NCBI GenBank assembly: GCA_964016885.1
Contig: OZ024750.1
Coordinates: forward strand, 1,612,001-1,676,000
Reading direction: 5' to 3'
DNA length: 64,000 nucleotides
From: Eledone cirrhosa
Lineage: Eukaryota
This document shows, piece by piece, positions 41,537 through 64,000 of the stretch. Made by a program: the position numbers and the translations under genes. The first letter of the stretch is position 1, and each line of letters begins with the position of its first letter. The notes beneath the pieces are model-generated. The model saw nothing but the letters and a program-made list of their open reading frames with translations, was not told the DNA's origin and made no database searches.

Positions 41537-41637
41537 TAATAAATTCTAATTCGTCGCACCACTGATTCTCCGTTTCTTATGTGATATATATCACATAAGA
41601 AACGGAAATCAGTGGTGCGACGAATTAGAATTTATTA
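41537..41637. repeat. Near-perfect 101-bp palindrome centred on TATATA
   Basis: taataaattctaattcgtcgcaccactgatt(c)tccgtttcttatgtgatat|atatcacataagaaacggaaatcagtggtgcgacgaattagaatttatta, with one bulge. Confidence 0.95.
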
Positions 41638-42110: not shown

Positions 42111-42215
42111 CAGGGTGTCAAAAAATATGTATATACACACTTTGAAGACCCTTTACAGGCAATATTTATTAAAATGCTGCTGAAATGTGTATACATCTTT
42201 GGGGTGGACACCCTG
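42111..42215. mobile_element. Tc1/mariner-type MITE (~105 bp)
   Basis: TA-cagggtgtc...atgtata(ta)cac / gtgtatacat...gacaccctg-TA. Related copies at about 48327-48400 and 54449-54550. Confidence 0.85.
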
Positions 42216-45200
42216 TATATAAAGGCTGTAAGTAAAAGAATCCAATACTGACACGTATATCAATGGACGTTTTTCGTCAGGAGATTTAATTTCAATACAA
42301 AGAATTATCAGACACTAATTCGTTTTTTTTTTCTCGGTAAAATTGATATTTGAATTGTCGTTATTTAGCTACGGATGAACTCTAATCTATCAAAGAGATG
42401 ATCAAAGGTGGTCCAACAGTCAGACAATTTTTTTTTTTTTTTTTTTTTCGTCAGAAATATCTAGGACTTCATATATCATGCAATTTCTCATTTTATTTTT
42501 AATCTATTATAAAATTGATTTTGGCTGCTATTTCTAGCTGGGAGAGTAACCGTGTTGATGTTCCCTCAGGGATAGATTATTTGAATTGAGTTTCAATTTA
42601 ACGGAAATTACATGTTGGAGAAAAATTCCACTTCCCAATGTCTTTACACATTTTAGTTAGTTATATCGAAAGAAAGGCAATAACATTAATTTATGAATAT
42701 GAAACGCCAGTCACTTTAATGTTTAGATATAATGTACAACAATGTAATTTATGAATTAATTATTTAAATTGAAATGTTTGATATTAATAACTTCTAATCG
42801 CACAATTGATTGATAGTTTCATATAATTGATTTATTATAATTTTTAAAATGGGCCTATCATAGATTAGAATTGACATTTTCGATATTATAAAAATTAAAT
42901 GATTAATCTAAAAACACGTGTTCAGACACGCATGCACCTACACCAACATAAATGCGCATACATTTGGTTACATGTGTAATTTTCTTCATCTATTTTCTAC
43001 ATGTGTACCTGATATATTTACACTATACACGCGCATGTGTCTATTTTCATTAGAGTATATATATATATGTGTGTGTGTGTGTATGTGTGTGTGTGTAGGA
43101 ATGTATGCGTGCGTGTGTATCTTCAGTGTCACTTGTGTCTAGTAACTTTGTGTCTCTGCGTGATTATCGGGACTTAAGTGTAAAGGCACGCCACTGGCCT
43201 GCCTAAATCACCATCCGACCGTATTGTTTTCACATATAGGACAAGGTCAGGGAACAGATTACAAACATATTAATTAGTTTCTAAATGACATCAGTTTGAC
43301 ACATACACTTGCACTTAAACTGGTGTGCTCTCAATGAAAAGTCTTTTTTTTAATTTGACGCTCTTTTATTTACTGGTTAGACATGTATTAACATATACAA
43401 CTATTTTCCAACGATATAAATAACTCTTACATCAATGTCTTACTTTCAGACAAGGAACTAATGAGATTGTGGGGTATTCAAGGATTACCCACGAGAATTA
43501 CATTATGTGGTATTGCGATCGAGTTGTTAGCTTCTCAGTTACGTAGTTTCGGATTGGACTCATTCGAGGTTTTGATCTTTGTCCTACTGTTTGCGACAGA
43601 GGTTACTAATAGTGATTGCATTAAAAAGCTAAATAATAACAATGCCACAGCAACAATAGCAACAACAACAAAAACATGCTGCATATTCTAAGAATAATTA
43701 CAACTGGTAGTGTTAACCGTGTAGTGTTTCTTAAATATACATATATGTGTTGTTTATGATCTACTTAGGTCTGACAGATTTAACACACTTGGAATCTAAG
43801 GAGTCTTAACTGTTCCATACAATATCCATGATTTATATTGACTAAGCAGATGACCAATAATGTTAATGTAAGTTGTATAATCGAGTTATTCCACCCTAGT
43901 TGTTTCTTACTGGTGAATGTTTTATCGATCTCGGAAGGATTAAGTCATAGATCACCCGACATTTTAATGAGCCCTGACAGAGTAGAAATAAGATCAAAAT
44001 TTTATGCATCAGAAATTAATTTTTTTACATTCAGAAAATAAAGTTGTTTTCTACTAACGGAACAAAATACCAAATGTCTCACATGAGTATAAAACCCATT
44101 GAACTGACTCTAAAATGTATTTATGGCACTTATTTTATCGACGATAGAAAACTTTTGAAGGCACTCGAACGTATAAGTTAAAGAGTCGGGATTACAAACA
44201 GTTGGATATTTCTTCCAGTACTAAAATGATTCTTTCAGTCACCAACAACTTTCAGGGATCTTTAGACGTTAACTACTCATATATTGGATTGATGTAGGAC
44301 TTTAAATGATATTTCGGATAGTCGAAATACAACGCATTCTAACACAAATGATCGAAATCATGAATTTAAACAACATTGACAATAACAACATGCATTACAA
44401 GAAGCGGAAATTGCATTGTAATAATTTTTTTTAGTTAATCTCTTCCACAAGTTCAAATTTTGACTGGATCAAGTTTGCTTCCCGAAGACAATCAATAAAA
44501 TAAATACCAATATTATGTCAATACAATGTGTAACACTAACACGTTATCAATGATATATTGATGCTGAATCATTCTAATACCATCCCTACATTCGATCTCT
44601 TTAAAAGTTAGTACCAGAAACTTTTTCATAAAATTAGCCACAACACCCTCTAGCAATTATTGGCAATTTTGTAACTTAACTTCACAGAGTAAATATCTTT
44701 CCTGAGAATCCGAACAGCGATTACGTTTCCAACTAGAAAAAATCATTGCATTTGTTTCATCATTAGACATTTACTGCACACGCTTATAAAATTATCAAAG
44801 TTGATACATCTTCAATAACACATACCATAGGCGTTAGATATATTGATGATGTTTACTAAAACGTTTTCGAGAACTATCGCTTCTGGTAACTAAATAAAAG
44901 AAGGCGTAGAAGATGTTCATACGTTACATCTATTGCGGATGACTTTAATAAACGTGGTAGAATTGATTTCAGGAAATATATTGACAGATCCCACTCAATC
45001 AATGGCGGTTAGAAATGTTATGACAATATATAATTTATTTCTTGTACGACTAATTGGAATTTTTACAAGTTGTCTTAGAAAGGCTCATCTCATAATAATA
45101 TCTGTATTCGATTTAAGAACAAATCCGGAAAATACAAGTACTATTCAACATATTAAAGAGATCATTACCAAATTTGGGCAGAAGCTGTGTTCTGCCAATG

Positions 45201-45598
45201 ACAAAAATCAATCGAAGCAGCAATCTATTCAACTCCAATTATATAAATGAAGTGGAATGTTTAATAAAATTATTTTCAAAAGGTGGAAATGGTGAACGTT
45301 ATTTTTCCAGTGCACATAAATCAAATATTAATTCTACATATAAATGAGATAGATATTGGTTTTTGGCCATTTATTTCGTTTCTGTGCAGTCTGTGATACG
45401 AGGCAGACACATGGAAGAGAATTCAACCCATTACAAATCCAAATGTTCCTCTATTGAATTGACGGGAAACTAAATTAATCGTAACCCAAACCTATACACA
45501 CCTATATAAACACGCACAAACACACACACGATCAGACACACAAATACACACATACACGCATACATATATAAACACACATACATACATATATACATACA

Positions 45599-45632
<34 letters not shown>

Positions 45633-46295
45633 CATACATATATATATATACATATGTATTAGGTATAAGTTTAGTAGAAAATATGTAGGAGCAACTGGAT
45701 TGAAATTATCGATTCATCTTAACAGCGTCAGAATCCTTTCAAAATACGGTTTTACGACGATTGATTCCTAATTCTTTTTCACATTTTGTTTGATATACAC
45801 ATAAATCTCTTATTTTAACATGAATATATAGCTTGAACTTATAGTGTTATAGCTTAAAGTAATTTCGTGCTCTTCTAAGGCTAAATGTGCAATATTATAT
45901 ATCATGCCAAATAATCTGCCTTTTTTAACATCAGCAATCCTGTTGATATCTATATGGAAATTATTTATCATTCACAGATTCTGATTTATTTTTAACTTTC
46001 GAACAATGCTATGAATGCTTATGGGATTGGGAAAGTTGATTGAATCTATTCCAGTAGAAATCTGGTAGTAATTTTATAAACTATGGTGACACAATCTGTG
46101 ACATGGTTTGTATTACAGATTCAAATCATTTTCTCCAACTGATTGGGTGGGACTCAGGTAAAGTAAGATGTTTTGTTCAACGACACAACTCACCACCTGT
46201 AACCGTACTCAATACCTTCACAATTGTGAGCCCAACACCTAAAACACTAATCCACGCCCCTTATTTTTAATAGACATACACCCATATTAATTAAT

Positions 46296-46478
46296 TGTTT
46301 TTACTTTTGGCACAAGGCCAGCAATTACCCAATGCATTACTGGTACTGTATTATATCGACCCTGTAAGGATGAAAGGCAAAGTTAACCTCGGCGGGATTT
46401 GAACTCAGAATGGTAAGGGCCGTAACTCTATGCGTCAAAGCATGGCGTCTGACCCTCTACCAATACTGACAATCCACA
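46296..46478 (-). mobile_element. SINE family A, near full length
   Basis: Close match to the 4804 and 1930 copies, with imperfect TSD cacccatattaattaat / cacccacattatttaat. Confidence 0.9.
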
Positions 46479-46841
46479 CCCACATTATTTAATACACTGA
46501 TAATACGAAAGTAATACTCGTAGCTGATAAACAAGAAAATATGTATGTAGCTATAGACGGGTGTGCTCAGACACGTACGTTTTGGTACGAATAATATATA
46601 CGCCATTTTACCGTTTTATATGTTATCCATTTATAATTATAAAATGTCTTAGGATTGATCGCAAAAATAGAGAAATTATACAAAACTATTTGTAACAAAA
46701 ATGTTTAGCGGACGTCCCGAACTGTTAGTCACATGACCAGAATCTATCATTGATCTGTCTAATCTCTAACGGGATTAGCTTAATCCTTTTTAACGTAATC
46801 TAAACCATGCAGTACACATTTCCACGTAAAGGAGAATATTG

Positions 46842-46927
<86 letters not shown>

Positions 46928-47035
46928 TCTATCTATCTATATCTCTGTGATTCATACACACACAAACACACATACATTACATCCATACATACATATACAT
47001 ACTCAGAAACGCACACACTCATATACTTATGTGTG

Positions 47036-47226
<191 letters not shown>

Positions 47227-47849
47227 TTGTTTGCATCAGGGACACATAGATATATAAAGACAGCCATCCAGATGCATAAACATATACAGAATGAGCTGGG
47301 GAAATATATGAGAATGTACAGCAGTAATATTAATGTCTATATTTTTTTTTAGTTCAGATTAAGCTTGTTATCTCTGGTTCGGAGATGATGTGTATTAGAA
47401 ATAGATTTGGGTCGAATCTCTCAACTGTTACTTCCAACCATCCTTCAGAATAATTAACTTATGCCTCGATATATCAGATTGTACGGGGATATATTGGTGA
47501 GAGTGTTAATGTAACATTCAATGTGCATTTTCGTGTATGTCCACGTCTGTGTGTGTGTATGTGTGTGTATGAGTGTTTGCGAGCTTGTGTGTATATGTGA
47601 GTGTATTTATGTACGTAGGTTGAGGAGTTGGGTGGTTGCAGATATGAATCTCATATAAAAGTCATATTTCAATATTGCATTATAAATATATTTGCAAATC
47701 CTATGTATTACTATTTACAATGCCGTTGTTTCGTGCAAATATTGTGAAAGGAACATGAGAAACTGATGACGAGAATGAGAGACGAGAAGAAGGAGAGAAG
47801 AAAAAAATAAGAATAAATGATAAATGGAAAGAAAGCAAACAAAGAAGAG

Positions 47850-47986
47850 AAAGCGAGTGAGAGAACGAGTGAGAGTGAGAGAATGAGAGCGAGAGAACGA
47901 ATGAGCAAGCAAGCGAAGGAGTGAGAGAGCGAGAGAGAGAGCGTGAGAGAGAACGAGTGAACAAGCAAGCGAAGGAGTGTGTATGT

Positions 47987-48017
<31 letters not shown>

Positions 48018-48065
48018 ACGAGTGAACAAGCAAGCGAAGGAGTGTGTGAGAGAGAGATAGAGAGC
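47850..48065 (+). repeat. Purine-rich minisatellite, 3 copies of gagagaacga(a/g)tga(a/g)caagcaagcgaaggagtg
   Basis: Unit seen near 47891, 47946 and 48011, separated by (GA)n. Confidence 0.85.
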
Positions 48066-48224
48066 AATATTTACAACATTACACCTTCATTCTAATCGCT
48101 GTATATCTGCTATAAGTATTCCTTAACAGATGTCTTGTCTCTTTCTTACATAAGTGGAGTTTCAACAGTATTTATCAGTAGATACACACACATACACACA
48201 CACACAGACACACACAGACAGACA

Positions 48225-48266
<42 letters not shown>

Positions 48267-48279
48267 TACACACACACAT

Positions 48280-48314
<35 letters not shown>

Positions 48315-48326
48315 TTTATCTATATA

Positions 48327-48400
48327 CAGGTGTTTCAAAAAATGTAAGCACATTTATTAGAATGCTGTTAATGCTTGTATACATTTTTTGCGACACCCTA
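48327..48400. mobile_element. Same MITE family, internally deleted copy
   Basis: caggtgtttcaaaaaatgta...tttattagaatgctg...tgtatacattttttgcgacaccct. Confidence 0.7.
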
Positions 48401-48455
48401 TACACACACACACACACACACACGCACACACACACACATACACACACACGCACAT

Positions 48456-48521
<66 letters not shown>

Positions 48522-49573
48522 CAAAATAATATATACATATATACAATATATGTAATCATACGTACAGTTTTATACAGACAGACAGACACACACATACTCT
48601 TTCACACACACACACACACACATGTGTGTGTGTATTAGTTAGGTGTCGGATGAGTGGGTGGAGTTCTTTAATCTCTAAGATGGAGTGCCACAGATTAAAG
48701 CAAATATATAACAACTTGGCTTTCACCAATGTCAGAGTGGCCTAATAACAATACTTCCGATTTGAGAAGAGTATAAGTAGTTTTGGCGGTAAACTGTCTC
48801 GGGAGGAGGGGGGCGAGGAGATGTGGTGGTGGTGGAGGAGGAGGGGGTGGGGGTAGAGGAGGTTTGGGAGGACGAGATGGATGTATAAATGTGTCAAATT
48901 AAATAAATAAAAGAAGGTGAGATGTAGTCATGCTAAATAGTTAACTAATTATTTCTTGATTAGCAATGACAAGTCGAAGACGAGTAGTGTTAAATGTTTT
49001 GTCTAAAGATAATAACCCAGTTACACAACAAGCAACTGTAGTAGTAGACAAGAGGACACATATAAGTACAATAAGTTCAACATCATTATTACTAATATCT
49101 TTCTTCTACTTAATAAATAACGCCTTTGTATTTTCATTTATTCATGTAACAAAGACTTAAATTATTATTTGTGAAAAATAATTCTCAGTTTTGTATAATT
49201 TTGAAAACATTGAAAGGGTTGGCAATGTTTGTACAATAAATTTATTAGTATAATTGCAAGAGAGTTAGGAAATGTCCACTGTTGAAGAATTACTAATGGG
49301 AAAATGTTCAACATTTCTAAACGAGCTTTTGCCGTGGGTTCTGAAACGCATACTTCACAGTCGGAGCTGAGTTGGTTGCTCGCAGGTTCGATCCCCGCGA
49401 GATTTTTTCAGCGAAGTTCTTTCAGCGCGTTCTCCCTCGCCGTCCTCCGTATTCTCCACGATTTCGGCCGGGACTCAGAGGTGGAGCGCAATATAGTTAT
49501 AAGGTTCTCATGTAGAGGCCTAGTGAATTAGGAAGCCTAGTATGGTCAGTTAATATGGAATTTAACACACACA

Positions 49574-49607
<34 letters not shown>

Positions 49608-49673
49608 ACAGAAAACCCGAGCTGAAACTACAAGTCTTGCGGTCAAGATTCCTCAATGTATATACATACATAC

Positions 49674-49755
<82 letters not shown>

Positions 49756-50010
49756 ACACTGCATATTTGTTCTGATACTAAGAAAGAAAACAACAGAAAG
49801 AAAAGTGTGGCGATTGCGTAAACTTCTAAATTTAAAACTTTTTCCAAAGACAAGCTGTTGCAATAATTAAAGCTATTAACTAAACGAGGATAAAGAGCAA
49901 CGTAGTTAACCCCACACAAACTTACAGAACTTAATTAGAAAACTACTGTTCAACAAATAGACCACATATACCAAATCTTTGAACATTTGGTTCAATAAAG
50001 ACGTAATAAT

Positions 50011-50109
50011 TGTTTCTACTTTTGGCACAAGGCCAGCAATTACCCAATGCATTACTGGTACTTTATTCTATCGACCCCGGAAGGATGAAAGGCAAAGTTA
50101 ACCTCGGCG
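50011..50109 (-). mobile_element. SINE family A, 5'-truncated
   Basis: Core plus 3' end, with TSD aata(a)agacgtaataat on both sides. Confidence 0.88.
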
Positions 50110-50270
50110 CAATAAGACGTAATAATGAAATATACGACTAAATACTTTCGACTTCACATCCAGGACCAGCGTTTCACAACCTTTTTACCCTTGTGGACTC
50201 CTTGAAATGGTTTTCATGTCTCAGGGAACCCCTTCATAAAAATTATTATATACCATTATTAATATAAAAG

Positions 50271-50471
50271 GGCGGTGGATTGGCAGTATCGGTAGATCGT
50301 CAGACACCATGCTTTGCAGCATTGAGTTATGGCCCTTTATGTTCTGAGCTCAAATCCCGCTCAGGTTAGCTTTGCCTTTCATCCTTACGGGGTCGATAAA
50401 ATAAAGCACCAGCGATTTAATCGACTTTTCCCTCCCCTACAATTGATTGTCTTGTGCCTAAAGTAGAAACA
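50271..50471 (+). mobile_element. SINE family A, full length
   Basis: GGCGGTGGATTGGCAGTATCGG head, core and tail ending gtgcctaaagtagaaaca. TSD-like attattaatat(a/c)aaag. Confidence 0.9.
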
Positions 50472-51443
50472 ATTATTAATATCAAAGTATGTCGTTAGGC
50501 GCTCTACCGTTACTGCCAATTCACCGCCCTTCATCACCACCACCTACATCAACAATAATATTGATAGATTATTTTACCCTATCTGGAGCACCTTTCTTGC
50601 CACATATGTTAATAAAAACAATACAGGGATGGGACCATCATAAAGAAAATCATTAGAAAAGAAAATATGACCTCAGTTTCACAATAAATCTATATATGCT
50701 AAAATGTAATATTTAAGCTATAAATTAGAGAGAAATGTATTTATGAAATAATCAACAAAAATTAAATGATACCAGGTCTAATTGGAGGCTATTAGCCTTT
50801 ATGTTAATGAAATAAACGTCTGGTGATTTGTAAATGAACAGAATGAAAACAACTATACTGTTTCCATTTAGTGTGCAGAGCATTTTTTACGTTAGCCAGC
50901 AAAATATCCTTATGGAATTTCATTAAAAAATATGAACAATTAAATATACCAGAATCCATATTCAGAGGAATTTTTTTTGTTTTCTTTAATAAATTGCTTA
51001 CGAAATTGCAATATTTGTTACACTAAGAAATAAACATTATAGTATTTCGCTTTATGTGTGTTATTAAATTTCCGATAAAACATAAAAGAAAATACCAATA
51101 AAATGAAAGTTTATTTTCATAAAGCTCTGTATAATATATGTGCTGTGTCTGCCTAATGTCCTATTATCTTTACAATTGGCACATAAGATAAAGTACTTCA
51201 TGTACCTTCTGAAAAATAAAATAAAAACGGGATATTCATGGCTACAATGGCGATATTTCTGTCTGCTCGATCAGGGCTAAACAATAACAAGCAGTTTCTG
51301 CAATATTGTTTTCATTTTGGGGTCAATGTTAGTTTTGTTTTCTGAAATTATATGTAGTCGCCGCGGGGTCTGACTTAGTTATAATATCTAATCCCCCAAT
51401 GTCTGGAGATCGATTCCGTCATATATTTTCAAATATAATAATG

Positions 51444-51585
51444 GTTTCTGATCTAGGCACAATGCCAGCAATTTTGGGGGAGGGGAAAGTCGATTAAGTC
51501 GAATCTAGTGCATTACTGGTACTTTACTTTATCGACTCCGTAAGGATGAAAGGCAAAGCTAACCTCGGCGGGATTTGAACTCAGA
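51444..51585 (-). mobile_element. SINE family A, 5'-truncated
   Basis: Core tttatcgactccgtaaggatgaaaggcaaagctaacctcggcgggatttgaactcag. Confidence 0.85.
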
Positions 51586-51599
51586 TGTATATGTGCATA

Positions 51600-51671
<72 letters not shown>

Positions 51672-52213
51672 AGTATAAGAGAGAGAGTGTGTGTGTATGT
51701 TTTGGTCATACAGAGTTCTTTAATAAGAAAAACTTTAATAGAAAACTTGAAAAGTCAAGTTATAAACATAGCGTAGTCATGTCGGTACAACATTATTGAA
51801 TAATTACACTAATTATTCAAAATGACCATAGAAAATGCTCTCTCATGTTGATATAAAATATTTCCATCTAAGTTCCAAACAAATAGCTTCAAATTACTTT
51901 ATTTCACTTATTTATTATTTTGTTCACTTTTTCTTTCTTTTCAACAATATTTCTGCACCCTATTCATATTTCTGTATATATTCTCTAGTCTTAAGGCTAC
52001 TTTGGCAGTTTTAATATTTCTATAAAACAATGTTTACAAATGTAATAGTGTGTCCAAGTTCAATAACATTATCATTAAATTAAAGAAAATGAATTATTTG
52101 ATAAAAATTACATTGTATATTTTATATCTAATTAAGACATTATACTTTGTCATATATATATTTACATTGGTAATGTTTGTCATAACAATAGATATAGCTT
52201 ACATTGTGAATAA

Positions 52214-52329
<116 letters not shown>

Positions 52330-52964
52330 GGTGGTGGTGAATGCACGCTGTTATCTTATATAGAGGGATAATGTATGTGTTTTGATGCATGGTAATAAAA
52401 GAGTTGATTTGACATTACAGGACGTACGTATAAGCTATTATAATGGAGAATAACTGTCATGACTAAATATACCATTTTTGAAGGCGTTCATTAAAACATA
52501 TATGTATACATGAACATGAATCTACATATGTTAGTGTTACGTCCCTTTACGTTCTGAGTTCAAATTCTGCCTTTCATTCTTATGGGGTCGATAAAATAAA
52601 GTACCAGTAACGTATTTATCCATATTTCAGACACGTAGTCTAATTGGGGAACAACACATCGATCATCCGTTTTGTTTTCAACTGTTTCAACTCCTCCTTT
52701 GAAAAGAGGGTTACAGTCCTGAAATATGTTGAAATACACCGGGTAAAGCATTACTTTGTTTTGTTTTATTTATCATTTGGCCTTTTTATTTTACCGTCTT
52801 GTTGAAAATTATCGGTCTTTTTATTTGGGATTATTTGTCTCAAGAAATCATCTTCCTAAATCAGTAAGAAACACAGATTTTGGAAAGATAACATAGACTT
52901 TGTGATATTCCATAGCGACAAGAACAGTACGTGTATTTATACTATGAAACTTTCTTATAATAAT

Positions 52965-53068
52965 TGTTTCTTCTTTTGGCACAAGGCCAGCAATTACCCA
53001 GTACATTACTGGTACATTATTTTATCGACCCCGTAAGGATGAAAGGCAAAGTTAACTTTGGCGGGATT
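52965..53068 (-). mobile_element. SINE family A, 5'-truncated
   Basis: Core plus tail with TSD ttataataat. Further family A fragments lie near 1595-1680 (-), 52535-52610 (+) and 59647-59737 (+). Confidence 0.85.
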
Positions 53069-53764
53069 TATAATAATACCAATATAATATGCAGTTTCAT
53101 TGTCTGTTTCTCATTTTCACCAATTCTGGATAAAATAAAAGAGACAATTGCTTTTCACCAAATATATATAGAATTGTGTGAATACTTATTATATGCTTGG
53201 CTAACATACAGGTAATAATGTTGAGACTCGTCATAAATAGTGTTGTTTATGTTGGAAAATATCTTTAACGTCTTTGTGCTAAAATATCGATTAATATGCT
53301 TTAAAAATATACAAATGTTTAGGCAAATTATAACGTAATGCCATTAACAACAGCTTGTCCATAGCCCATAATTAGATCACCTAAATCCTTGAAAATAAAA
53401 GCAAATTGTATATTGTTGGACAATGAATATGTGATCAGAAAACAAATTATGTTTCTGTACGTCAGACAATACGACGTGGGAAATGCTTTAGAATATTCTA
53501 CAGTGAATTATTTACTCCATTCTTTTTTATGACTGTGTTATTCCATATCGTTTGTTGAAGTTTTAGCAAAATAATTTCCTCCTTAATACCAAAGTTGTCC
53601 TCTAGCAACCAAATATGTCATTCTTTACCTGGTAACAATCTATATACTACTAAAACTTTGTCATTGTGTGCTTGTCTGTAATGTAATACAGTCAAAACAG
53701 CCATAATGGGAAAATACTTTGAAAGGAAGTTGCCCTTGAAATGGGAATACAAATGGAATAAAAC

Positions 53765-54080
53765 AAGTTTCGTGTAAATCGGAGCACGAGTTCCCGAGAT
53801 ACGCGGTTTTTCCGGTTACCTTCATAAATAGCCAACAGCTCCGTGATATCCAATAACTTTCTCTATATATATTATAACCCCCTTCCTTTCTAATATATTA
53901 TAACCCCCTCTCTATATATATTATAACCCCCTTCTTTTCTAATATATTATAGCCATCTCTCTATATATATTATAACCCTCCCTCTATATATATTATAACC
54001 CTCTTTCTTTCTATATATTCAACCCTCTATATATATTACTGGACTACCCGTGACCCAAAGAGGTACGGGTAGTCTACGTT
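53765..54080 (+). mobile_element. Possible non-autonomous Helitron-like remnant with internal minisatellite
   Basis: aagtttcgtgtaaatcggagcacgagttcccgagata motif, a ~22-bp minisatellite (ctctatatatattataacccc, 53860-54035) and a terminal hairpin gactacccgt...acgggtagtc ending CTACGT. Confidence 0.4.
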
Positions 54081-54448
54081 TTCATAAGCCTACTCCTGTC
54101 AAACTCAAGCAAGCAATCAACATCGACATTTTAGCATATTCGCCAAACACACTACAGAGATGTGCGGCATAGTTTATTCAGCATGTATAAATGATTTAAA
54201 CAATGTATTTGCTTAAACAACATCTGGTACCTTCCACGTGGAAGGAGAGAATAAAAAGGAAACACTAATTTTCAGTCCTCGATTAGAATATGGAGAAGAA
54301 ACTCGCATGACAGGACTGAAAGTGACAAAATATCAATATACACTACATTAACATTGGGAAACCAAAGTATAATATATCTGAAACCAAGTACGCCATATTG
54401 GCCATAAAATGTCGGACAGAGACAACAAAGCATTTTATCCGACGCTCT

Positions 54449-54550
54449 AGGTGTCCCCCAGAAAATGTATACACACTTCAATAGCATTCTAATAAATGTT
54501 GCCCTGTACATGTCTCAAAGTATACATTTTTGGGGGGGGGGATACCCTAT
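54449..54550. mobile_element. Same MITE family, opposite orientation
   Basis: aggtgtcccccagaaaatgtatacacacttcaatagcattctaataaat...gtatacatttttggg...gataccct. Confidence 0.75.
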
Positions 54551-54573
54551 ATATTTCGAGTATACAATATTAA

Positions 54574-54700
54574 GTGAAGGCGTGTGGCTGAGTGGTAAGA
54601 GAATTGGATTCGCAATCGTGAGGTTATGAATTCGATTCCAGGACCGGGCGATGCGTTATGTCCTTGAGCAAGACACTTTATTTCTCGTTGCTCCTTCTAC
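54574..54700 (+). mobile_element. SINE family B, 5' portion
   Basis: gtgaaggcgtgtggctgagtggt...ttcgattccagg...tgtccttgagcaagacactttatttc matches the 4015 copy. Confidence 0.85.
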
Positions 54701-55556
54701 CTGGAGTTGCGACCGATAGATAGTATTAGCAATTGGAACGACCAACGGAAACATTGTTTCCTCGGTCCGATTTGACGAAAGTCGATCGACAGTCATACTA
54801 TTAAGATAATTCTCACGGCGTGTAGAGAGAGGTTCTGTTGTTGGCTACAACTAACGAGTGGCCATCGCAGCAGTGACCCTATTTGTTAGACATATCTGTT
54901 AGAAAAATCAAAGATGTCGTACAAAAGTAGGACATGGTAGATAACATGAATATCCATGCACCATAATTACAATTTAAAGTTTGGATCATAATTATTTTCA
55001 ACTGCATTGTAGCAATTTACTAGAGTAACGAACCAACACGAACGCCTCTATATGATAGCTCAGCTTGATAGAATTATTAATCAAATTTCTCTTAAATCAT
55101 ATATCATCTTTTAAAAGAGCTAGAACGCCTTTGATCATATTTCTGTTCAGTCAGGGATCACATGCAACGCTTTATGAATGTTTCCTCTTATTTTATAAAG
55201 AACATGTGCAAAATATAAAAATTGCAAAATAATTAGATGCGAACAGTTGACAAGTAGATACCTAACTTGATTAGCGTTGATTATTCAGTTGTATTTCTAT
55301 CGTACATGATCATATACACATATATTAACATACATACAGATCCATACAGAGAGGAGGTGGTGTTGCTTGATACACAGGTCTGATGAGCAGATCAGGCTGG
55401 AGCTGGGTCTATAGCATTTACATGAACCCTGAGCCACCCATCTGTGAAACGATCATAACTGTGTATAATCAATACAAAACTTAGTGTAAAACCTCGTCAG
55501 AAATATTATATTATTTAATATAATATTGAAACCATGGGTAGCGCCTTTGTTCCATC

Positions 55557-55620
55557 TATGAACTAAAATTGATAATATAATATATATATATATATATTAT
55601 ATTATCAATTTTAGTTCATA
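55557..55620. repeat. Perfect 64-bp palindrome centred on (TA)n
   Basis: tatgaactaaaattgataatataatatatata|tatatatattatattatcaattttagttcata. Confidence 0.95.
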
Positions 55621-55788
55621 TATACACAGATATAAACTAAATCAATGTAACAGCATTACATTGTGTAAATGAATACGTGTCACCAGCTAAAACATACAAG
55701 TGTACAAATAAGTAGCAGCTGTTCCTGTATTTACGTAAGTATATGCAAGTTATTGTCAGTATATGTATGAAGGATCAAATAAGTTCTC

Positions 55789-55822
55789 CCGATGAGCTGG
55801 CATTAAACAGGAGAAACTAGTC
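55789..55822 (+). ncRNA. Decayed hammerhead ribozyme motif
   Basis: CCGAUGA-GCUG(GCAUUAAA)CAGGA-GAAA-CUAGUC, with palindromic stem III ACUAGU and a GUC triplet. There is a U4->C change and stem I is poor. Confidence 0.45.
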
Positions 55823-55945
55823 AAGTTGTTCTTCAGTTCTTTCTGAAAAGTGGTGGATCTACATGCACAATAGGGCTATATGCTTGCTTACTAAACTTAT
55901 ACGTGTAAATGTATCATAACACATACAAACCCCGGTCAGACACAC

Positions 55946-56019
<74 letters not shown>

Positions 56020-56740
56020 TTATTTATTTATATTAAACAAGAGAAGAATGACTTCACTGGTGGTTTGTGTTCTTCAATTATTCTTCAAATATTTAGAGTA
56101 ATTCGTTATTTATATAAGTCTGGTTAAAATGATGTCTAAGGGGATGACATCAGGGTAGAGATTATGTTCACGTGCAGTTATCGTTGTTGAGTGTATCAGT
56201 TATTTACCATTGCTAGTGTATATTGTTTGAATGTGATTAGTAGAAGTGCATCAAATGCATGAATAGACGTAGGTTTTTCTCTGTGGGATATGTCTGTAAA
56301 GTACAGGCTGTAAAGTGTGTGTGTACTTGTAACTAAGCATAAATGTAATCGCGTATGTGTTTGGTGTTTGCTACCGTGTATGAAAGATGGATGTTTGTAT
56401 GTAGCTGTATGTATGTGTAGTATGTATGTGTGTGCGATATACATAGGGTGTTTTTATGTGTACGTATATGATAGAAATAAATGTAGTACCTTATATATGT
56501 CTGTTGTGTGTATGTGTGAGTAACATCGTATGTTTTGAAGACTGTAGTGTTGTTTTGTGACATGTGTGTGCATTTATTTTTACTATGTATGTGTATGCGA
56601 TTTGAACTGTGATGTTGGTACGTGATTAGATACTAGTAGGAAGCGTGGGGGTGTTTAGTGTAGTATTGAATAAATAACACAAACGCGGGGATGCAAACAA
56701 CACAGTCTTATTCATGTGTGTGTGCGTATGCAGGTATATA

Positions 56741-56815
<75 letters not shown>

Positions 56816-57159
56816 TCTCATATTTGCGTGTCAGTAGTCTATCTATGTTTTATTGAATATACCACTATATTCTAGAGCCAACTTTGGTTTTATTAATGAT
56901 ATATCAATCACATATGATCGTCGAGAACAATAAATATTCTAGGTCCGGCGGTGTTTCAAGACTTCCTTCTTTTATGGTCAGCTTGAAATTATTTTTGTTA
57001 TTGACATTTTTATGTTGTGCCTGTTATTTTTTCTTGTCTTTCAATCTCACCGGACGTTCATTTTTCATGGCTTCTGGTGACAGTACGTTACGTTCAACCA
57101 TCAGATTATATTTTTGTGGTTTTATCTCATATTATTAGTATTTTACTACAATAACCGTG

Positions 57160-57445
57160 TGAGGCTGTCTATCATAAGGTCGTAAGATCGATTCCCAAGG
57201 GCGCGTTGTATATTGAGTATGACGGTTTATACCACGTTTTCACAGGCCACTCAGCTGGCAAAAAAAATGAGTTGTAGCTTGTAATCGGAAATGCCAATCT
57301 TGTCACACTAAATCTCCCTGAGAACTATGGTAAGTGTTCCCGTGTTGGTAGAATGCTTACTCATTCGCAAGTTAATTTTACAAGCAAGGTGTAGTGTTGT
57401 TTGAAAAACTGAAACACTCGTCGTCGGAACTGACAGAGTACCAAT
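57160..57445 (+). mobile_element. SINE family B, diverged copy
   Basis: Shares ccactcagctggcaaaaa, cctgagaacta, gttaattt.acaagcaag and aacactcgtcgtcg with the 4015 copy. Confidence 0.75.
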
Positions 57446-57893
57446 GCACCTGAACAAGTCCATTAATGAGAGAGCGGTGAAGTACAGGATTAATCTGCTA
57501 CTTTTCCTCCTCGTGTAGGTAGACGGATTGTTCTAAAAAATAGTATGGTTTAATCTATCGATGTTTTATCAAGTTGTTTTTCTGATCATCATAACATCGA
57601 TATATCGTCTTCTCCTCTCGGGAATACTGTAGGCTTTATTATAATTAATGTGTCCTATTTTATGACGGCAGGGGTTGAGGGAGATTTGGAAACTATTTTT
57701 AAATCACGTAAAAACACATTTGTTGAATAGTTCTTTTGTGTATCTCTGTTTGCAATGTGCGCATGTGCAAGCATCTATGTATTTTGCAAGATATAATGTA
57801 CTTTAATGAGAGTTTGTTGGTGTTATTGTTAAGCCCCCAGGTTCTGATTATGAAGATCTAAGAACAAATGACTCTTATGTGAAGTATATCTTA

Positions 57894-57997
<104 letters not shown>

Positions 57998-58127
57998 ATA
58001 TATACATATTGCAAACATACACTTTGTAAGCACTCTGAGCCAGGCTTTGTCCTTACTAGTTCATTCCATAATTCATTGAGTGAGTAATGTGTGCAACCGA
58101 GATTATAGTTGATACTATAACCTCGTT

Positions 58128-58195
<68 letters not shown>

Positions 58196-58290
58196 AAAAA
58201 TATTGATGTAATTCAATTCAAGAACTCAACGTGCATTTTCACAGCCTTATCAATAAAGGACTTTATCAGCTAAACTTTGTATTTTCTTAT

Positions 58291-58380
<90 letters not shown>

Positions 58381-59370
58381 CGAGATTGCATTCGTTAGCT
58401 TGGCTGCAACCAGAGCTTCGATGATGCTGTACTAAATGTTGTATATATATATATGGGTAGTTCTAATTTACGTCTTTGATAATTTAATCAAATATAGCTA
58501 TAAAACTTTAACATTTTATGTAGAAATTAACTGAAATTTTAAAAGTAATTGCAATCAGCTACCCAGAGTAAATCTCATTTATGATATTAGTTAGCAAATC
58601 AAGCACAGTATTTAATATTTACTGTGTAATTTGTTTCTGTTTTGCTGGCTATTGTATCTGTTGTATTTACAGATGAATGTTTTATAATTATAGCAGGTTT
58701 CAAAACAAACATCTCGTCAGAACATTTAATGTTCAGTATTAACCAATTTCAAGCTGACATAATAAAAATGTCATTAATATCATCTCATACACTGTATAAA
58801 GTTATGGAATTCTTCAAACAATGAAGGGTTTCCACAGTTTATTAGTTCAATGGATTAAGAAGGAAATATGACAAATCGTTAATCAAAGCGAAAGGACTGA
58901 TTGTGTATTGGCAGAACCATTGGAGTGTCACTGCACAAAATACCTTGTATTATTTGTTCCGATGGAGGGATGTTACATTACCTTCCTTATGACCTCCCCA
59001 CTCCCTGAAACTTAAAACCTTCTACAGATCAACGGGTTGGGGTGGCGAGGGAGGGTTTGGGGGATGGCAGGGAGGGGGATGGCCGGCAGTGGTGGTGGGG
59101 TGGAATTCATTTGAAATTGGAGGAAAAGAATAGAAAAGAACAAAGGAAGAATGAATATATAAAATTATATCTTAAAAACATTGGAGCTTGAAGGTAATCT
59201 TATCTGATCCACCATCATTTCAGATATCAACCCCTTCCTCACCACCATCAACACCCCACCAACATCGACATCCCACCACCATCGACACCTCACCACCATC
59301 AACACCCCAACACTGCCATTTAACTTATATATTTATCCAATTTTATCCCTGCAGCAGCAGTAACAGCAAC

Positions 59371-59447
<77 letters not shown>

Positions 59448-59481
59448 CAGTAGTAGTAGTAGTAGTAGCAGCAGCAGCAAC

Positions 59482-59539
<58 letters not shown>

Positions 59540-59550
59540 GTATTAGTAGT
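59371..59550 (+). repeat. (AGT)n microsatellite
   Basis: Directly visible. Confidence 0.97.
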
Positions 59551-60247
59551 ATAGAGGTGAACCCCATTAAGTGAGGGGGGGGGACACAAAGAATCTATAA
59601 ATTGATTTTAATTATTTTATTTATTATTATTATTATTTTATGTGTAGGGGCGGTGAATTGTCAGTAACCGGTAGAGCGTCGTACACCATGCTTTGTAGGA
59701 TATAGTTACGGCCCTTTATGTTCTGAGTTTAAATCCCATTGATATATATATATGTGTGTGTGTGTGTGCCTGTGTGTGTGTGGGCGTTGTGTGTGTGTGT
59801 GGGGGGGGGGGGGGGGGGGTGATACATACATGTATGTATATCGTGAAGATAAGTATAATGTGGAGCTCTTTTCTGATATCCTGAAGCTTGGTTCAGAAAC
59901 TGTTTTGTTGGTCTCAGAGTGATCGATGTCGTGAATCAGCGATTGACTCCATCCAAGTCTGTAGGCCTCCACTCTATTGATTATATCATAGAATACTACA
60001 TATAATATACAAATAAACTTGTTTACCTTACATATGACATGCATATACATACCTTACAGTTAGCATGCATATACATACATGTATACCTTCATACATTCAT
60101 TTATATATCTATATATAAACATGTGTGTGAGTGTAGGTATTTATGTATGTGTTTCTTCCGTCTCTCTCTATCTATCTATCTGTATGTATATATATGTTTC
60201 TGTGTGTGTGGTCGACTAAGCGTGCAAGAATGAGAGGTCTGAAAGAC

Positions 60248-60258
60248 AGAGAGAGAGA

Positions 60259-60338
<80 letters not shown>
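60248..60338 (+). repeat. (GA)n microsatellite; complementary (CT)n at 60661-60723
   Basis: Directly visible. Confidence 0.97.
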
Positions 60339-60343
<5 letters not shown>

Positions 60344-60612
60344 TTAGAAAGAGGGAGTGAGAAATAACCTTACTTTCCTTTGGAAACTAATGTAATTTGT
60401 TGTCTAACTCGCTTGCTTGTCAATACAGACAAATAAATAAACAAACAACAATACTGAGCTGTCGCTGACTAAAAATTAGTACTAATCGCTGAAGCTGGAC
60501 ACAATTTAAGAGATTCGACCTTTCTATATATATATAAATGGCCGACACTAATTAAGGTCAGTAATCGAGATAACTAACAATTACTTAAACATCTGCTGAG
60601 CTAAGAGCTTAC

Positions 60613-60617
60613 TTCAT
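60613..60617 (-). CDS. Candidate innexin first coding micro-exon (ATG AA) followed by donor GTAAGC
   Basis: The minus strand reads ...GAAAACTACAGATC ATG AA|GTAAGC. This phase-2 donor matches the phase-2 acceptor and would give MKLNSLLGGFATYSRLKG. It is preceded by a purine-rich, 5'UTR-like tract. No transcript evidence. Confidence 0.45.
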
Positions 60618-60656
60618 GATCTGTAGTTTTCTTCTTTGTTTTCTTCTTCTTCTTCT

Positions 60657-60726
<70 letters not shown>

Positions 60727-60972
60727 TTTGCCCACCAACGAAATTAATGCACAAGATTCAAACTGTTTCATAACTCGTTCGACTACCCGTCATTATTTCT
60801 ATAGAAATTATCATATTACAAGTCAGTCTGTTCAAGTCTGTTCAATACCCTTTTTAAAATGAAGTATACACATTGTTCACCTTTTTTTTTCATATATATA
60901 TATATTCGTATATTTTTTTAGACATTTTAGAATTTCATTTTGTCTATTCATTTTGTTAAGCGAATCAAATAA

Positions 60973-61010
<38 letters not shown>

Positions 61011-61163
61011 CAAGATGTATGGTAGGTCGTATGTGAATCGCGATGATCACGTCTGACCTACCAAATATGTGACGGTAGCTAGTTAAGCTCTATGCGTATA
61101 CGCAGAGCAGAAATATTAGTGAAAAAGAACAAAGGAACTATTATGACATTATAACGAGTTTAT

Positions 61164-61210
61164 TGCCGACAGCCGTTTCGTCCGACCATATGGTGGGACT
61201 TTTCAAGGCA
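61164..61210 (-). ncRNA. Minimal type I hammerhead ribozyme, U3-A8 core variant
   Basis: UGCC-UUGAAAA-GUCC(CACCAUAUGGUC)GGAC-GAAA-CGGCUGUC-GGCA. Stem I is UGCC/GGCA, stem II is GUCC/GGAC plus ACCA/UGGU, stem III is near-palindromic (ACGGCUGU), and the cleavage triplet is GUC. Confidence 0.8.
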
Positions 61211-61805
61211 TATAACATGTGATTGTAAGATCATTATTTACATCAACGTATCACTCAAGGCTAGCAGTTTGAAATTGTGGTATACATCAGCAGCTCCGCT
61301 TGTATAGTTGGGGTCTATATTCTAAGGGGGCTCTTTTATATTAGTTGTCGGGGTCAGGGATTGAAGGTTAAAAATTAGATAATATATAATTTACGCATTA
61401 ACAGTAAACTAAAAGACTTGGGATCCCGTAGAAGCACCTTAAAAAATCCCTCAATAAGTGCATAAAGCTTGCAGGCTCCAATAAGCCTAATAAACTAGAA
61501 GAAATTAAGAGGCTAATAAAATAAAAAATAAAAATATAAAGTTCCCCTAAAAAATATAAAGTTTCCTATGAAATTCCTTCGAGAGAAAAAATTTTTTTCC
61601 CCATATATATATATATAAGACATAATAAAGAAGACATACGCTAATTTATAAAGCAAGGTATCAATTTATCGTTAGATTATCTTAGGTCATTTCTTATTCT
61701 TATCTAGTCATTGTAGCAGAACGATTGAGACTAATTGGTCATTTGTGTCCGTGTATATTTTTTATTATCATCAAAATCTTCCTTACTATCATTATCATTA
61801 TTATC

Positions 61806-61855
<50 letters not shown>

Positions 61856-62130
61856 CATTATTCTTATTAATATTATTTGAAAATGGCATTGAAGACGTCT
61901 AGCCAGTTAATGTTGATAAAGCAGAGAAATGGCATTTTTTGTATTATTCATTGTGGAACAATTTTGCTGGATGTATTGTGATGAGTTAATGACTGCTGCC
62001 ATTATTGTGTAGACACTAGGACGCCATATTAGTTTCAATAAAGAATCTATCGAAATGTCTTTGAAAACAGATTGAAATATAGGTATATATATATATATAA
62101 AGAGAAAGAGAGTGAGAGAGAGATAAACAG

Positions 62131-62252
<122 letters not shown>

Positions 62253-64000
62253 TTTTTCTCTGAATAACTCACTACCATTATGAATTACCCGTGCATCATT
62301 GAATATAGTAAATATAATTCTTGAAGAAACTATTCAAAGAATTGTATGATGTAATACATTTTTAGATAGCGTCTGTATTTTGTGGACTACAACGTTCAAC
62401 TTCTTACATTTATTTGTTATTTAAGTCCCTGAATAATATTTATTAAGTGTGGATTAGGAGGGCATTTTGACATTTAGGTATATTTCAATTTAAGCATAAC
62501 AAGGAGTTATGTAACCCTTTAAAGTTTCTAATTACAGAAGGATTTCGGGAAACTCTAATGAGTACGTTGTTAAAATCTCTTCATCGGTTTTGTTTTCCCT
62601 ATAAGTGTGAGATAATAATATCACTGTCTTAGTAATGACGAAGCTCTAAGCTTAAGATCTGTAATCCTTATCCGTTTCAAGAGGTTTCATTGTGTCCTTG
62701 AGCAAATAATTACATTAATTTGTCATGAAGATAATCACAGAAAATATTGAATGTGCTGGCTTCCGGAATACTAAGGTTAAATAACAAATGTCAAATGGAA
62801 CAAGAAGGTTATTAAAGAAATCATTCAGGTCAAGAGAAGTATTAGCAAGATTTAATAACATACAAAGATTAAAAGAACAATAAATGACTACAAGAATCTC
62901 ATTTATATTGATCTGGTATATTTGTGTAATGCATCAAACATATATATCAATGACGTTGTGCAACGTTCGTGATTTAAAAAAGTCATTTACGATGTAAGCT
63001 ATAATTTAGCAAGGAAATAAGGTTGCAGAGTAGAGATTCTGAGATTCCATCTATAATATTAATTGAATGTAGATGGCATTCTCGTTGCCCAAGAACCACG
63101 ATAGAGTTATACGTACAAGGAATTAGTTCTAACGATTTAATGTCCTTCATATATATATATTTGCTCAACTGATAAAGAGACTAAACACATTCAAACAAAC
63201 TTCACATGAAAACTATAACGCTTTGCCGCCATTACATTGCATCATACAAAATGGATTCTATTCCATTTTAGTTCCAGGTAAGCATACACTCTAATTGTTA
63301 ACACCACATCCCACCGCAATAGAAAATTATGCTGTCAAAATGTCTGTTATACGATAGTATCTTCTAAATATTTTCCGGAAGGAACTGTAGAAGCAACAAC
63401 AGTAACAAAAACATCTCTTATTAGATAGGGGAACATAAGGTGAATGGGGTTTTGATATACTAATAAAAAATATATAATGATGCAGAGAGAAAATTCTGGA
63501 AAATAATTCACAACATCCGGGTAGATAGACAGCTGTTGTGGCTTATAGAAGCTATTTTCAGAGCAGTTTGAAACTTTATTCTAGGAACGTAAAATTTCGG
63601 ATGGACATATGGTATGAAAAATCGGGATCGGATCACTCGATCCAATGAATACACAATTATTTCTGTTGTATGTCTTATTTTCCTTCGACTGCGAAATTTA
63701 TTGCTACACACTGGATTTATTCAATCCTACTGGCGAACATGAAACTTATAAGTTTCCAGAATAAAGGGTTAAAAAGATTGGCCGACATCTAGTTAAGGTG
63801 GTGGTATATTTAGGTATTGTAGTCAGATATAACACGTTGGGCCATTCACAATAATGTGATGTAAAACATTCTACAGTAAATAAAAGCAGTCAAATTATTT
63901 CATATTTCACACCTGATATCGACCGAAGGGTCAGGGTCAGCATGCATTTGATTATAAGTCTGCTTAATCTATGATGACTAAGATTAAAGAACATAGGTTA

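What the first reader, a model, noticed from the sequence alone, without database searches (positions are those of the whole stretch)
61164..61210. Intact-looking U3-A8 variant hammerhead just upstream of the candidate innexin first exon, same strand
Seen: all three helices form and the triplet is GUC. The core is UUGAAAA instead of CUGANGA, so the C3-G8 tertiary pair is replaced by a compensatory U3-A8 pair, which argues for selection rather than chance. Predicted cleavage is between 61168 and 61167, about 550 nt 5' of the candidate ATG at 60617. A second hairpin (ggtaggtc...gacctacc, 61021-61062) lies just downstream on this strand. Inference: it could cut upstream or read-through transcripts or a long 5'UTR.
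Basis: partly seen in the sequence, partly recalled or inferred. Interest (0 to 1): 0.75.

Follow-up and report, generated by a model that had tools for sequence, protein, structure and literature searches.

The report
Jumping-gene hammerhead inside an innexin intron
This self-cutting-RNA motif is real, but it is the ordinary end piece of a Penelope-type jumping gene with hundreds of near-identical copies in the genome, and this copy sits in what relatives' transcripts show as a long intron of a gap-junction gene, where a lone copy is predicted to cut little or not at all.

Summary
The type I hammerhead at 61210-61164 (minus strand) is real: UUGAAAA core, GUC, cut at 61168/61167. But helix III is only 2 bp (predicted pairing 0.00-0.03) inside a self-complementary ACGGCUGU, the mark of dimer-dependent hammerheads. 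It lies in a ~596-bp solo 3' end (pLTR plus tail) of a young Hydra-clade Penelope-like element, inserted in (TA)n. The genome holds 866 exact U3-A8 core matches; full copies carry an RT plus GIY-YIG ORF between two such ends. A sister family keeps C3-G8 (180 matches), so the covariation belongs to the transposon lineage, not to this locus. U3-A8 cores are published, including in Penelope-like elements. The ATG at 60617 is unsupported: none of 12 orthologs starts MKLNSLL, and relatives' spliced contigs use exons at 24856-24762, 20.7 kb and ~64.5 kb. The element therefore lies in sense in a 39.6-kb 5'UTR intron of the innexin. No second family copy lies within 104 kb. Most likely an inert passenger. 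The scan has found Penelope hammerheads in this genome before, including a Hydra-clade U3-A8 one on other DNA.

The parts
61164..61210 (-). Type I hammerhead, U3-A8 core (UUGAAAA), GUC triplet; predicted cut between 61168 and 61167
   Evidence: sequence; pairs checked; RF00163 20.1 bits, below gathering; descriptor against shuffles
61169..61176 (-). Self-complementary ACGGCUGU (helix III plus loop): 2 bp in a monomer, 8 bp with two G-U pairs between two copies
   Evidence: self-duplex -9.7 kcal/mol; monomer pairing probability 0.00-0.03
61006..61601 (-). Solo, 5'-truncated 3' end (pLTR plus tail) of a Hydra-clade Penelope-like element, inserted in (TA)n
   Evidence: shared homology begins at the 5' junction and ends at the (TA)n junction; other copies flank an RT plus GIY-YIG ORF
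61006..61112 (-). ~107-nt tail between the family's two recurrent 3' ends (about 61113 and about 61006)
   Evidence: partner arms of two-armed insertions end at 61113-61117
61021..61062 (-).
   Evidence: present in family copies
61088..61107 (-). Small hairpin CTCTGCGTATACGCATAGAG at the start of the tail
61333..61340 (-). TATA-like TATAAAAG in the pLTR; candidate element promoter (inferred, untested)
61159..61164 (-). AATAAA overlapping the 3' end of stem I; also follows the sister family's hammerhead; possible poly(A) signal of the element (inferred)
   Evidence: AATAAA occurs 61 times in this intron, so weak on its own
60975..61005 (.). (TA)n target remnant at the 3' junction (a second (TA)n lies at about 61602-61618)
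60613..60617 (-).
   Evidence: one of 9 open phase-2 ATG..GTRAG candidates listed; 0 of 12 orthologs start MKLNSLL
24857..64000 (-). 5'UTR intron of the innexin (GT at 64502, just beyond the window, to AG at 24857; 39,646 nt) that holds the element in sense
   Evidence: join seen in relatives' contigs from 3 runs, not in the closest-matching run
24762..24856 (-). Innexin 5' exon ending AT|gtaagt; supplies the split start codon of the MLNSLL isoform
   Evidence: orthologs
20648..20723 (-). Innexin cassette exon encoding MADFLA|gtaag
   Evidence: joint 18885-20646 with GT-AG ends in run X1
17684..18886 (-). Innexin main coding exon (unc-9-like)
   Evidence: PF00876, E 6.9e-98; cluster with octopus, Argonauta and Sepiella innexins

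Best explanation
The motif is the hammerhead in the end repeat (pLTR) of a young, high-copy Hydra-clade Penelope-like retrotransposon, and this copy is a lone truncated end that landed in a TA repeat within a long 5'UTR intron of an innexin gene (intron mapped from relatives' transcripts), where it is likely a passenger with little or no cutting activity. Shown: the element's boundaries, copy number, RT plus GIY-YIG ORF in full copies, Hydra-clade motifs, the C3-G8 sister family, and the absence of a second family copy in 104 kb. Inferred for the element: full copies are transcribed from the upstream pLTR as RNAs with two hammerheads, which can pair through the self-complementary ACGGCUGU (or be folded by the element's own protein) and then cut after GUC. 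The endonuclease nicks (TA)n, and reverse transcription starts at one of two sites bracketing the hairpin-bearing tail, which gives the two recurrent 3' ends. Here it stopped after about 600 nt. Inferred for the locus: the copy is transcribed as part of the innexin intron, lacks a partner in cis, mostly misfolds, and is spliced out.
For: Copy number: 1388 first-look candidates, 40 scored, 42 matches, nearly all 96-100% identical. The exact core pattern has 571 matches, control 0. Boundaries: homology with 29 of 29 other loci ends at the (TA)n junction or runs on into more element, and continues 5' of 61601 in the other copies. Full elements: L031, L032 and L033 have direct repeats about 5.3-5.4 kb apart around an ORF with RWR, DKT, YRDD, CNCRRKDKC, VVY..YVG without the CC pair, CSLC and CPH. 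These match the Hydra definition in PMC8557442 section 11 and the Hydra alignments in its supplement. In the 5' pLTR of L033 the cut site lies 238 nt before the ORF's ATG. Covariation in a shared stem context: U3-A8 866 (by subtraction), C3-G8 180, C3-A8 5, U3-G8 6, of 1057 matches. The C3-G8 form belongs to a sister family whose RT pieces are 44-69% identical. In 37-38 aligned copies, core positions differ in 3 of 525 cells (0.57%) against 1.0-2.3% in flanks; recurrent changes fall at N7 and loop II. Dimer logic: helix III pairing 0.00-0.03 as a monomer; double hammerhead -38.7 against 2 x -15.2 kcal/mol. Published PLE hammerheads showed no monomer cleavage and low dimer cleavage (PMC4209133), and one needed its element's protein (PMC11167929). 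No partner: one family copy and one compatible palindrome in the window plus 40 kb. Innexin structure.
Against: No cleavage assay exists for this sequence; inactivity as a monomer is a folding prediction plus analogy. The lowest-energy dimer found (-42.2) pairs through the loop II palindrome and is not the active double hammerhead, so even dimer activity is not assured. The intron's 5' end is mapped from relatives' contigs (runs X1, X6, X12, about 95% identical in the coding exon, RNA status guessed); the closest-matching run X22 shows cover on the 24.8-kb exon but not the upstream join. An alternative first exon near 60.4-60.6 kb is not excluded, since I laid no reads there. The element's period (about 5.3 kb) is longer than the '<3 kb' given for Hydra. 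Pfam and PDB searches did not name the RT, so the clade rests on motifs, not a tree. The conservation figure uses copies chosen for likeness to this one, 3 of them picked by the core pattern itself.
Confidence: 0.86

Rival explanations
1. The intronic copy is conditionally active: family transcripts (pairing in trans through ACGGCUGU) or the element's protein fold it, it cuts the innexin pre-mRNA before the 39.6-kb intron is spliced, and innexin output falls when the transposon is expressed.
For: Sense orientation in the intron. The core is intact and identical to a common family form (8 of 37 copies). About 36 kb are still to be transcribed after the site, which leaves time to cut (inference). 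Protein-assisted cleavage is shown for a Poseidon PLE (PMC11167929). Intronic ribozymes are proposed regulators in mammals (PMC6765202 passages).
Against: No partner in cis. Poor monomer fold and a competing dimer. PLE hammerheads are slow even as dimers, and RNA-seq showed no ends at the cut site for PAc. The insertion is young (99.2% to its nearest copy) and one of hundreds; a second, unrelated PLE hammerhead lies in the same intron, so such a placement is common here.
Confidence: 0.06
2. The solo pLTR affects the innexin by signals other than cleavage: its TATA-like box starts an alternative transcript that splices from a nearby donor (such as ATGAA|GTAAG at 60613) into the innexin exons, or its AATAAA ends the pre-mRNA early.
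For: TATAAAAG at 61340-61333 and AATAAA at 61164-61159 lie in sense; AATAAA also follows the sister hammerhead. pLTRs typically hold promoters (PMC6765202 passage). The 60613 donor is in phase with the main exon.
Against: 0 of 12 orthologs start MKLNSLL. All mapped joins use other exons. The intron has 61 AATAAA. Neither signal was tested.
Confidence: 0.05
3. One reading: a host-selected, monomer-active hammerhead just upstream of the innexin first exon that trims upstream or 5'UTR transcripts.
For: Motif, coordinates, strand and triplet are right.
Against: Transposon origin with at least 571 identical cores; helix III does not form; the first exon is elsewhere.
Confidence: 0.02

Closest known systems
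Hydra clade of C-terminal EN+ Penelope-like elements, e.g. Hydra-1_Obim, Hydra-1_Amil (Craig et al. 2021, PMC8557442; section 11, passages, supplement searches and supplement part 2 of 59 seen)
   Same: Single RT plus C-terminal GIY-YIG ORF, DKT, CxCX5C linker, no CCHH, CxxC and CxH near the end, (TA)n targets, partial tandems with an inverted truncated arm, a tail on one arm, a hammerhead in the pLTR with self-complementary helix III.
   Different: Core is U3-A8, whereas 26 of 26 Hydra rows in its File S2 have CUGANGA. RWR instead of RWK. Period about 5.3 kb against '<3 kb'. Tail about 107 nt against the 30-40 bp given for other PLEs. The two family core strings I searched for are absent from that supplement.
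Hammerheads in pLTRs of metazoan PLEs, including the U3-A8 variant of the Schistosoma Cercyon element (Cervera and de la Pena 2014, PMC4209133; parts 1-2 of 4 read)
   Same: Type I, short stem I, tiny palindromic helix III, mostly solo copies from truncated PLEs, opposite-strand pairs; the same U3-A8 covariation (about 1,300 hits in S. mansoni).
   Different: Here stem II is 4 bp with no bulged base after A9 and a palindromic loop II; different clade and host; copies are far more uniform than the variable Schistosoma sets.
Natural U3-A8 hammerhead cores (Perreault et al. 2011, PMC3088659; passages read)
   Same: C3-G8 covaries to U3-A8 in several natural examples; the paper says such ribozymes had been shown active in vitro.
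   Different: Activity of this sequence is untested, and its helix III is unstable as a monomer.
Poseidon PLE of Anolis, PAc (Frangieh et al. 2024, PMC11167929; parts 1-2 of 4 read)
   Same: Two recurrent 3' ends that define a tail downstream of the hammerhead, next to stem-loops; AT-rich targets.
   Different: In PAc the two ends were shown to be RT start sites inside the ORF and the ribozyme needed the protein. Here both are inferred, and the tail ends before the ATG.
Intronic ribozymes of amniotes and CPEB3 (PMC6765202 passages; PMC10919898 search listing only)
   Same: Sense ribozyme motif in a long intron of a host gene.
   Different: Those are conserved, low-copy motifs (recalled, not from a call); this is a young copy of a high-copy transposon with no sign of host conservation.
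Non-LTR retrozymes (bioRxiv 10.64898/2026.07.22.740005; part 1 of 5 read)
   Same: Type I hammerhead, PLE pLTR kinship.
   Different: Not a tandem array of short non-coding units; it is a solo end of an ORF-bearing element.

Membership tests
Type I hammerhead ribozyme | Core N3 U G A N N8 A / GAA, A15.1-U16.1, NUH triplet, Watson-Crick 3-8 pair | tested here: met
   UUGAAAA, GAAAC, GUC; U3-A8
Type I hammerhead ribozyme | Three helices able to form in one molecule | tested here: not met
   Helix III pairing probability 0.00-0.03, stem I 0.00-0.56; met only in the modelled dimer
Type I hammerhead ribozyme | Rfam RF00163 gathering score | tested here: not met
   20.1 bits against 34, E 0.26; the core departs from CUGANGA
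Type I hammerhead ribozyme | Self-cleavage after C17 | not testable with these tools
   needs an in vitro assay
PLE pLTR hammerheads (dimer type) | Lies in both direct repeats flanking an RT plus GIY-YIG ORF, in sense | tested here: met
   L031, L032, L033 and L037
PLE pLTR hammerheads (dimer type) | Palindromic helix III / loop 3 | tested here: met
   ACGGCUGU self-duplex, 8 bp, -9.7 kcal/mol
Penelope-like elements, EN+ | Partial tandems, inverted 5'-truncated arm, tail at one end | tested here: met
   12 fetched loci hold two or more copies; 8 of the 12 show both a long and a short 3' end
Hydra clade | DKT in place of DKG | tested here: met
   VPSDKTRNM (definition)
Hydra clade | RWK motif | tested here: inconclusive
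   RRIRWRTFH: RWR, a conservative change
Hydra clade | CxCX5C linker before the endonuclease | tested here: met
   CNCRRKDKC
Hydra clade | No CCHH (no cysteine pair between GIY and YIG); CxxC and CxH near the conserved E and N | tested here: met
   VVYACNVTTDTYTKTYVG has one C; CSLC; CPH
Hydra clade | (TA)n insertion | tested here: met
   junctions
Hydra clade | Generally short (<3 kb), canonical CUGANGA hammerhead | tested here: not met
   period about 5.3 kb; U3-A8 core. These are described tendencies, not diagnostic motifs; the sister family has the canonical core
Hydra clade | Groups with Hydra RTs in a phylogeny | not tested
   motif-level comparison by eye with the supplement's alignments only
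Neptune clade | CX2-5CxxC linker and CCHH motif | tested here: not met
   against definitions
Non-LTR retrozyme | Tandem non-coding units, each with a hammerhead | tested here: not met
   one copy in 104 kb; parent has an ORF
Host-domesticated intronic ribozyme | Conserved at the orthologous site across species | not testable with these tools
   no related genomes are held for G000; 99.2% identity to another copy suggests a young insertion

The most novel reading that the evidence does not exclude
Hundreds of sense-oriented intronic ends of this transposon are latent cut sites in host pre-mRNAs: silent alone, switched on when the transposon's own RNA or protein appears, so transposon activity would directly turn down genes such as this neural-type innexin. 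The natural C3-G8 and U3-A8 sister families would then be two tunings of the same switch.
Probability: 0.05. Interest if true: 0.72.

Novelty: new member of a known kind. Interest (0 to 1): 0.2.

Why it matters
As it most likely stands it matters little: a further Penelope-like family with a published core variant, and a warning that an 'intact, compensated' ribozyme near a gene can be a transposon end. Two points are of modest use. The genome offers a natural matched pair of sister hammerheads (C3-G8 and U3-A8, same stem I and stem II arms) for asking what PLE hammerheads do, a question the cited papers leave open. And a genome-wide strand count of intronic copies would test cheaply whether these ribozymes ever cut host RNA. 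If trans-activated cleavage were shown, it would be a new way for a transposon to regulate host genes.

Tried and rejected
Rfam at gathering scores found nothing; the other E-value hits near the site are microsatellite-driven miRNA models. Neptune clade: my first reading, from recalled motifs, dropped after checking the published definitions. MITE or SINE: rejected, since copies continue into an RT plus GIY-YIG ORF. Pfam on 4 ORF pieces: 0 relevant families, one below-cutoff Pox_A28 hit. PDB sequence search: no meaningful hit. Homolog searches returned mostly unnamed proteins of 35-59% identity; the two named ones carry the label 'GATA zinc finger'. P0001 (100% identical innexin) begins MKLNICFRFSSR before LNSLL, which looks like intron read-through, not an ATGAA exon; 3 more orthologs look the same; the 13th cluster member (320 aa) was not fetched. 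Heterodimer with the second hammerhead at 34143: rejected by inspection, since its stem I and helix III arms are not complementary. No RNA holder listed for the innexin exon; runs laid are Logan contigs, which show joins but not levels, strand or ends. Both read-laying runs went to the innexin exons, so neither the element nor 60.4-60.6 kb was laid. Lunse et al. on dimer cleavage is not held; I saw only its title in a reference list. Paper searches listed no paper on this family or on an innexin ribozyme; subscription journals and Repbase were not searched, and the supplement of PMC4209133 was not opened, so an earlier listing of this family is not excluded.

Full report
Observation. The minus strand of 61210-61164 reads as a type I hammerhead (pairs checked): stem I UGCC/GGCA, core UUGAAAA, stem II GUCC/GGAC closing on G10.1-C11.1, GAAAC, and GUC with C17 at 61168. 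It is not chance: a strict descriptor that it passes hit 0 of 20 shuffled windows, a loose one 3 of 20. Rfam scores it as RF00163 at 20.1 bits, under the gathering score of 34. The claim that all three helices form does not hold for one molecule. Helix III is 2 bp with pairing probability 0.00-0.03 in 5 of 5 folded windows, stem I reaches at most 0.56, and the active fold lies 3.1 kcal/mol above the minimum. The eight bases ACGGCUGU pair with themselves (8 bp, -9.7 kcal/mol), and a double hammerhead scores -38.7 against -30.4 for two monomers. Against this, the lowest-energy dimer (-42.2) pairs through the loop II palindrome and is not the active form. The second hairpin (61062-61021) is real.

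What it sits in. A search of the genome with 61010-61600 gave 1388 candidates; 40 were scored and gave 42 matches, nearly all full-length at 96-100%. In the window the shared sequence runs from 61601 to about 61006, with (TA)n on both sides; in the other copies it continues upstream of 61601. Three of four extended family loci (L031, L032, L033; L034 holds only the 3' part) show direct repeats about 5.3-5.4 kb apart, each with the hammerhead, around a frameshifted ORF with RT and C-terminal GIY-YIG motifs, and an inverted truncated arm at the 5' side. This is the layout of Penelope-like elements (PMC8557442 passages). The window copy is a solo 3' end. Copies end at one of two places, about 61113 or about 61006; 8 of the 12 loci with several copies show both. 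In a Poseidon element the two ends of the tail were shown to be reverse-transcription start sites at a stem-loop (PMC11167929, parts 1-2 of 4); the same here is inference.

Clade. I first took it for Neptune from memory. An earlier scan note (e1-9560118) pointed to Hydra, and the published definition (PMC8557442 section 11) fits: DKT, CxCX5C, no cysteine pair between GIY and YIG, CxxC, CxH, and (TA)n targets. It departs in RWR for RWK, in length, and in the core: 26 of 26 Hydra hammerhead rows in the supplement are CUGANGA. No tree was built. Pfam and PDB searches did not name the ORF. The host is an octopus-like cephalopod by its innexin cluster.

The U3-A8 pair. With stems fixed and positions 3, 7 and 8 free, the genome has 1057 exact matches: 180 C3-G8, 5 C3-A8, 6 U3-G8, hence 866 U3-A8, of which 571 have this copy's A7. 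The C3-G8 form belongs to a sister element with RT pieces 44-69% identical and the same stem I and II arms. So the pair did covary, between two transposon lineages. That is one event, and the few mismatched copies mostly reflect recent amplification. Among 37-38 aligned copies the core differs in 3 of 525 cells, against 1.0-2.3% in flanks, with recurrent change at N7 and loop II (a biased sample). This supports selection on the element. It says nothing about this locus, whose copy is 99.2% identical to another. U3-A8 cores are in print: natural examples (PMC3088659 passages) and about 1,300 hits tied to a Schistosoma PLE (PMC4209133).

The innexin. The main exon is 18886-17684 (PF00876), entered in phase 2. 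Of 12 fetched cluster members (of 13), 4 start MLNSLL, 4 start MADF(L/F)ALNSLL, 4 have intron-like starts, and none starts MKLNSLL. MADFLA|GTAAG lies at 20664, and run X1 joins it to the main exon across a GT-AG intron. Runs X1, X6 and X12 (three studies, relatives, RNA status guessed) carry an exon at 24856-24762 ending AT|gt, which makes the split ATG. Their next exon upstream maps, 27 of 30 letters and uniquely (next best 19 of 30), to 64506-64535, just beyond the window, ending at a GT donor. That exon has its own acceptor and X1 holds about 150 more letters upstream, so the start site lies farther out. (My note calling this 'intron 1' was too strong.) The element therefore lies in sense in a 39,646-nt 5'UTR intron. 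The closest-matching run, X22, covers part of the 24.8-kb exon but does not show the upstream join. The ATG at 60617 is one of 9 open phase-compatible candidates and has no support, though I laid no reads there and cannot exclude a minor alternative exon.

How it most likely works. In full elements, two pLTR hammerheads on one RNA, or the element's protein, could build the active fold and cut after GUC. Published PLE hammerheads showed no monomer cleavage and low dimer cleavage, and one cut only with its protein and was dispensable for insertion in vitro. At this locus there is one family copy and one compatible palindrome in 104 kb; the other hammerhead in the intron (34143) belongs to a different element and cannot pair with it. 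The copy is likely transcribed with the intron, mostly misfolded, and spliced away (0.86).

Novelty and verdict. A new member of a known kind. My searches listed no paper on this family, but Repbase, subscription journals and the supplement of PMC4209133 were not seen. The scan has reported Penelope hammerheads in this genome several times, including a Hydra-clade U3-A8 case on other DNA; a sequence look-up found no note on this family. Interest 0.2.

Noticed in passing
window 34143-34100 (-), fragment about 33985-34420 with a short inverted arm at 34593-34681: A second, canonical-core (CUGAAGA) minimal hammerhead in sense in the same innexin intron, in a (TA)n-flanked end of a different Penelope-like family (94-98% to pieces of L033).
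   Followed up: partly
L036:1600-5871 (-); G000:C1:203682067-203686370: Sister element, period about 4.3 kb, with canonical CUGAUGA core, quasi-palindrome ACAUUGU and AATAAA just after the cut site; 180 exact core matches. A natural control for the U3-A8 family.
   Followed up: partly
window 61194-61185 (-): Loop II holds a perfect 10-nt palindrome (ACCAUAUGGU) that favours a non-active dimer in folding; 22 of 37 copies have G at 61189 instead.
   Followed up: partly
window 60532-60368 (-): TATA-like TATATATAGAAAG followed about 150 nt later by a strong donor GGAAA|GTAAGG between GA and CT repeats: looks like a possible alternative non-coding first exon of the innexin. Untested.
   Followed up: no
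window 24762 / 18886 (-): The innexin start codon of one isoform is split by an intron (AT|G); the 20.7-kb cassette exon swaps in MADFLA. Both starts occur in Octopus and MADF also in Sepiella.
   Followed up: yes
L031, L032, L033: between the ORF end and the 3' pLTR: An unusually long (about 2 kb) region after the ORF with an internal ~120-bp direct repeat at about 80% identity; explains the element's length.
   Followed up: no
L031:8647-9267 (-); L033:726-1440 (+); L032:7830-9758 (-): Other mobile elements next to family copies: two further GIY-YIG PLE-type fragments and a decayed LINE-like RT (labels from recalled motifs).
   Followed up: no
proteins P0183, P0184: Octopus proteins labelled 'GATA zinc finger domain-containing protein 14-like' match this element's RT region (46% and 59% identity), so they are probably mis-annotated PLE ORFs.
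   Followed up: no
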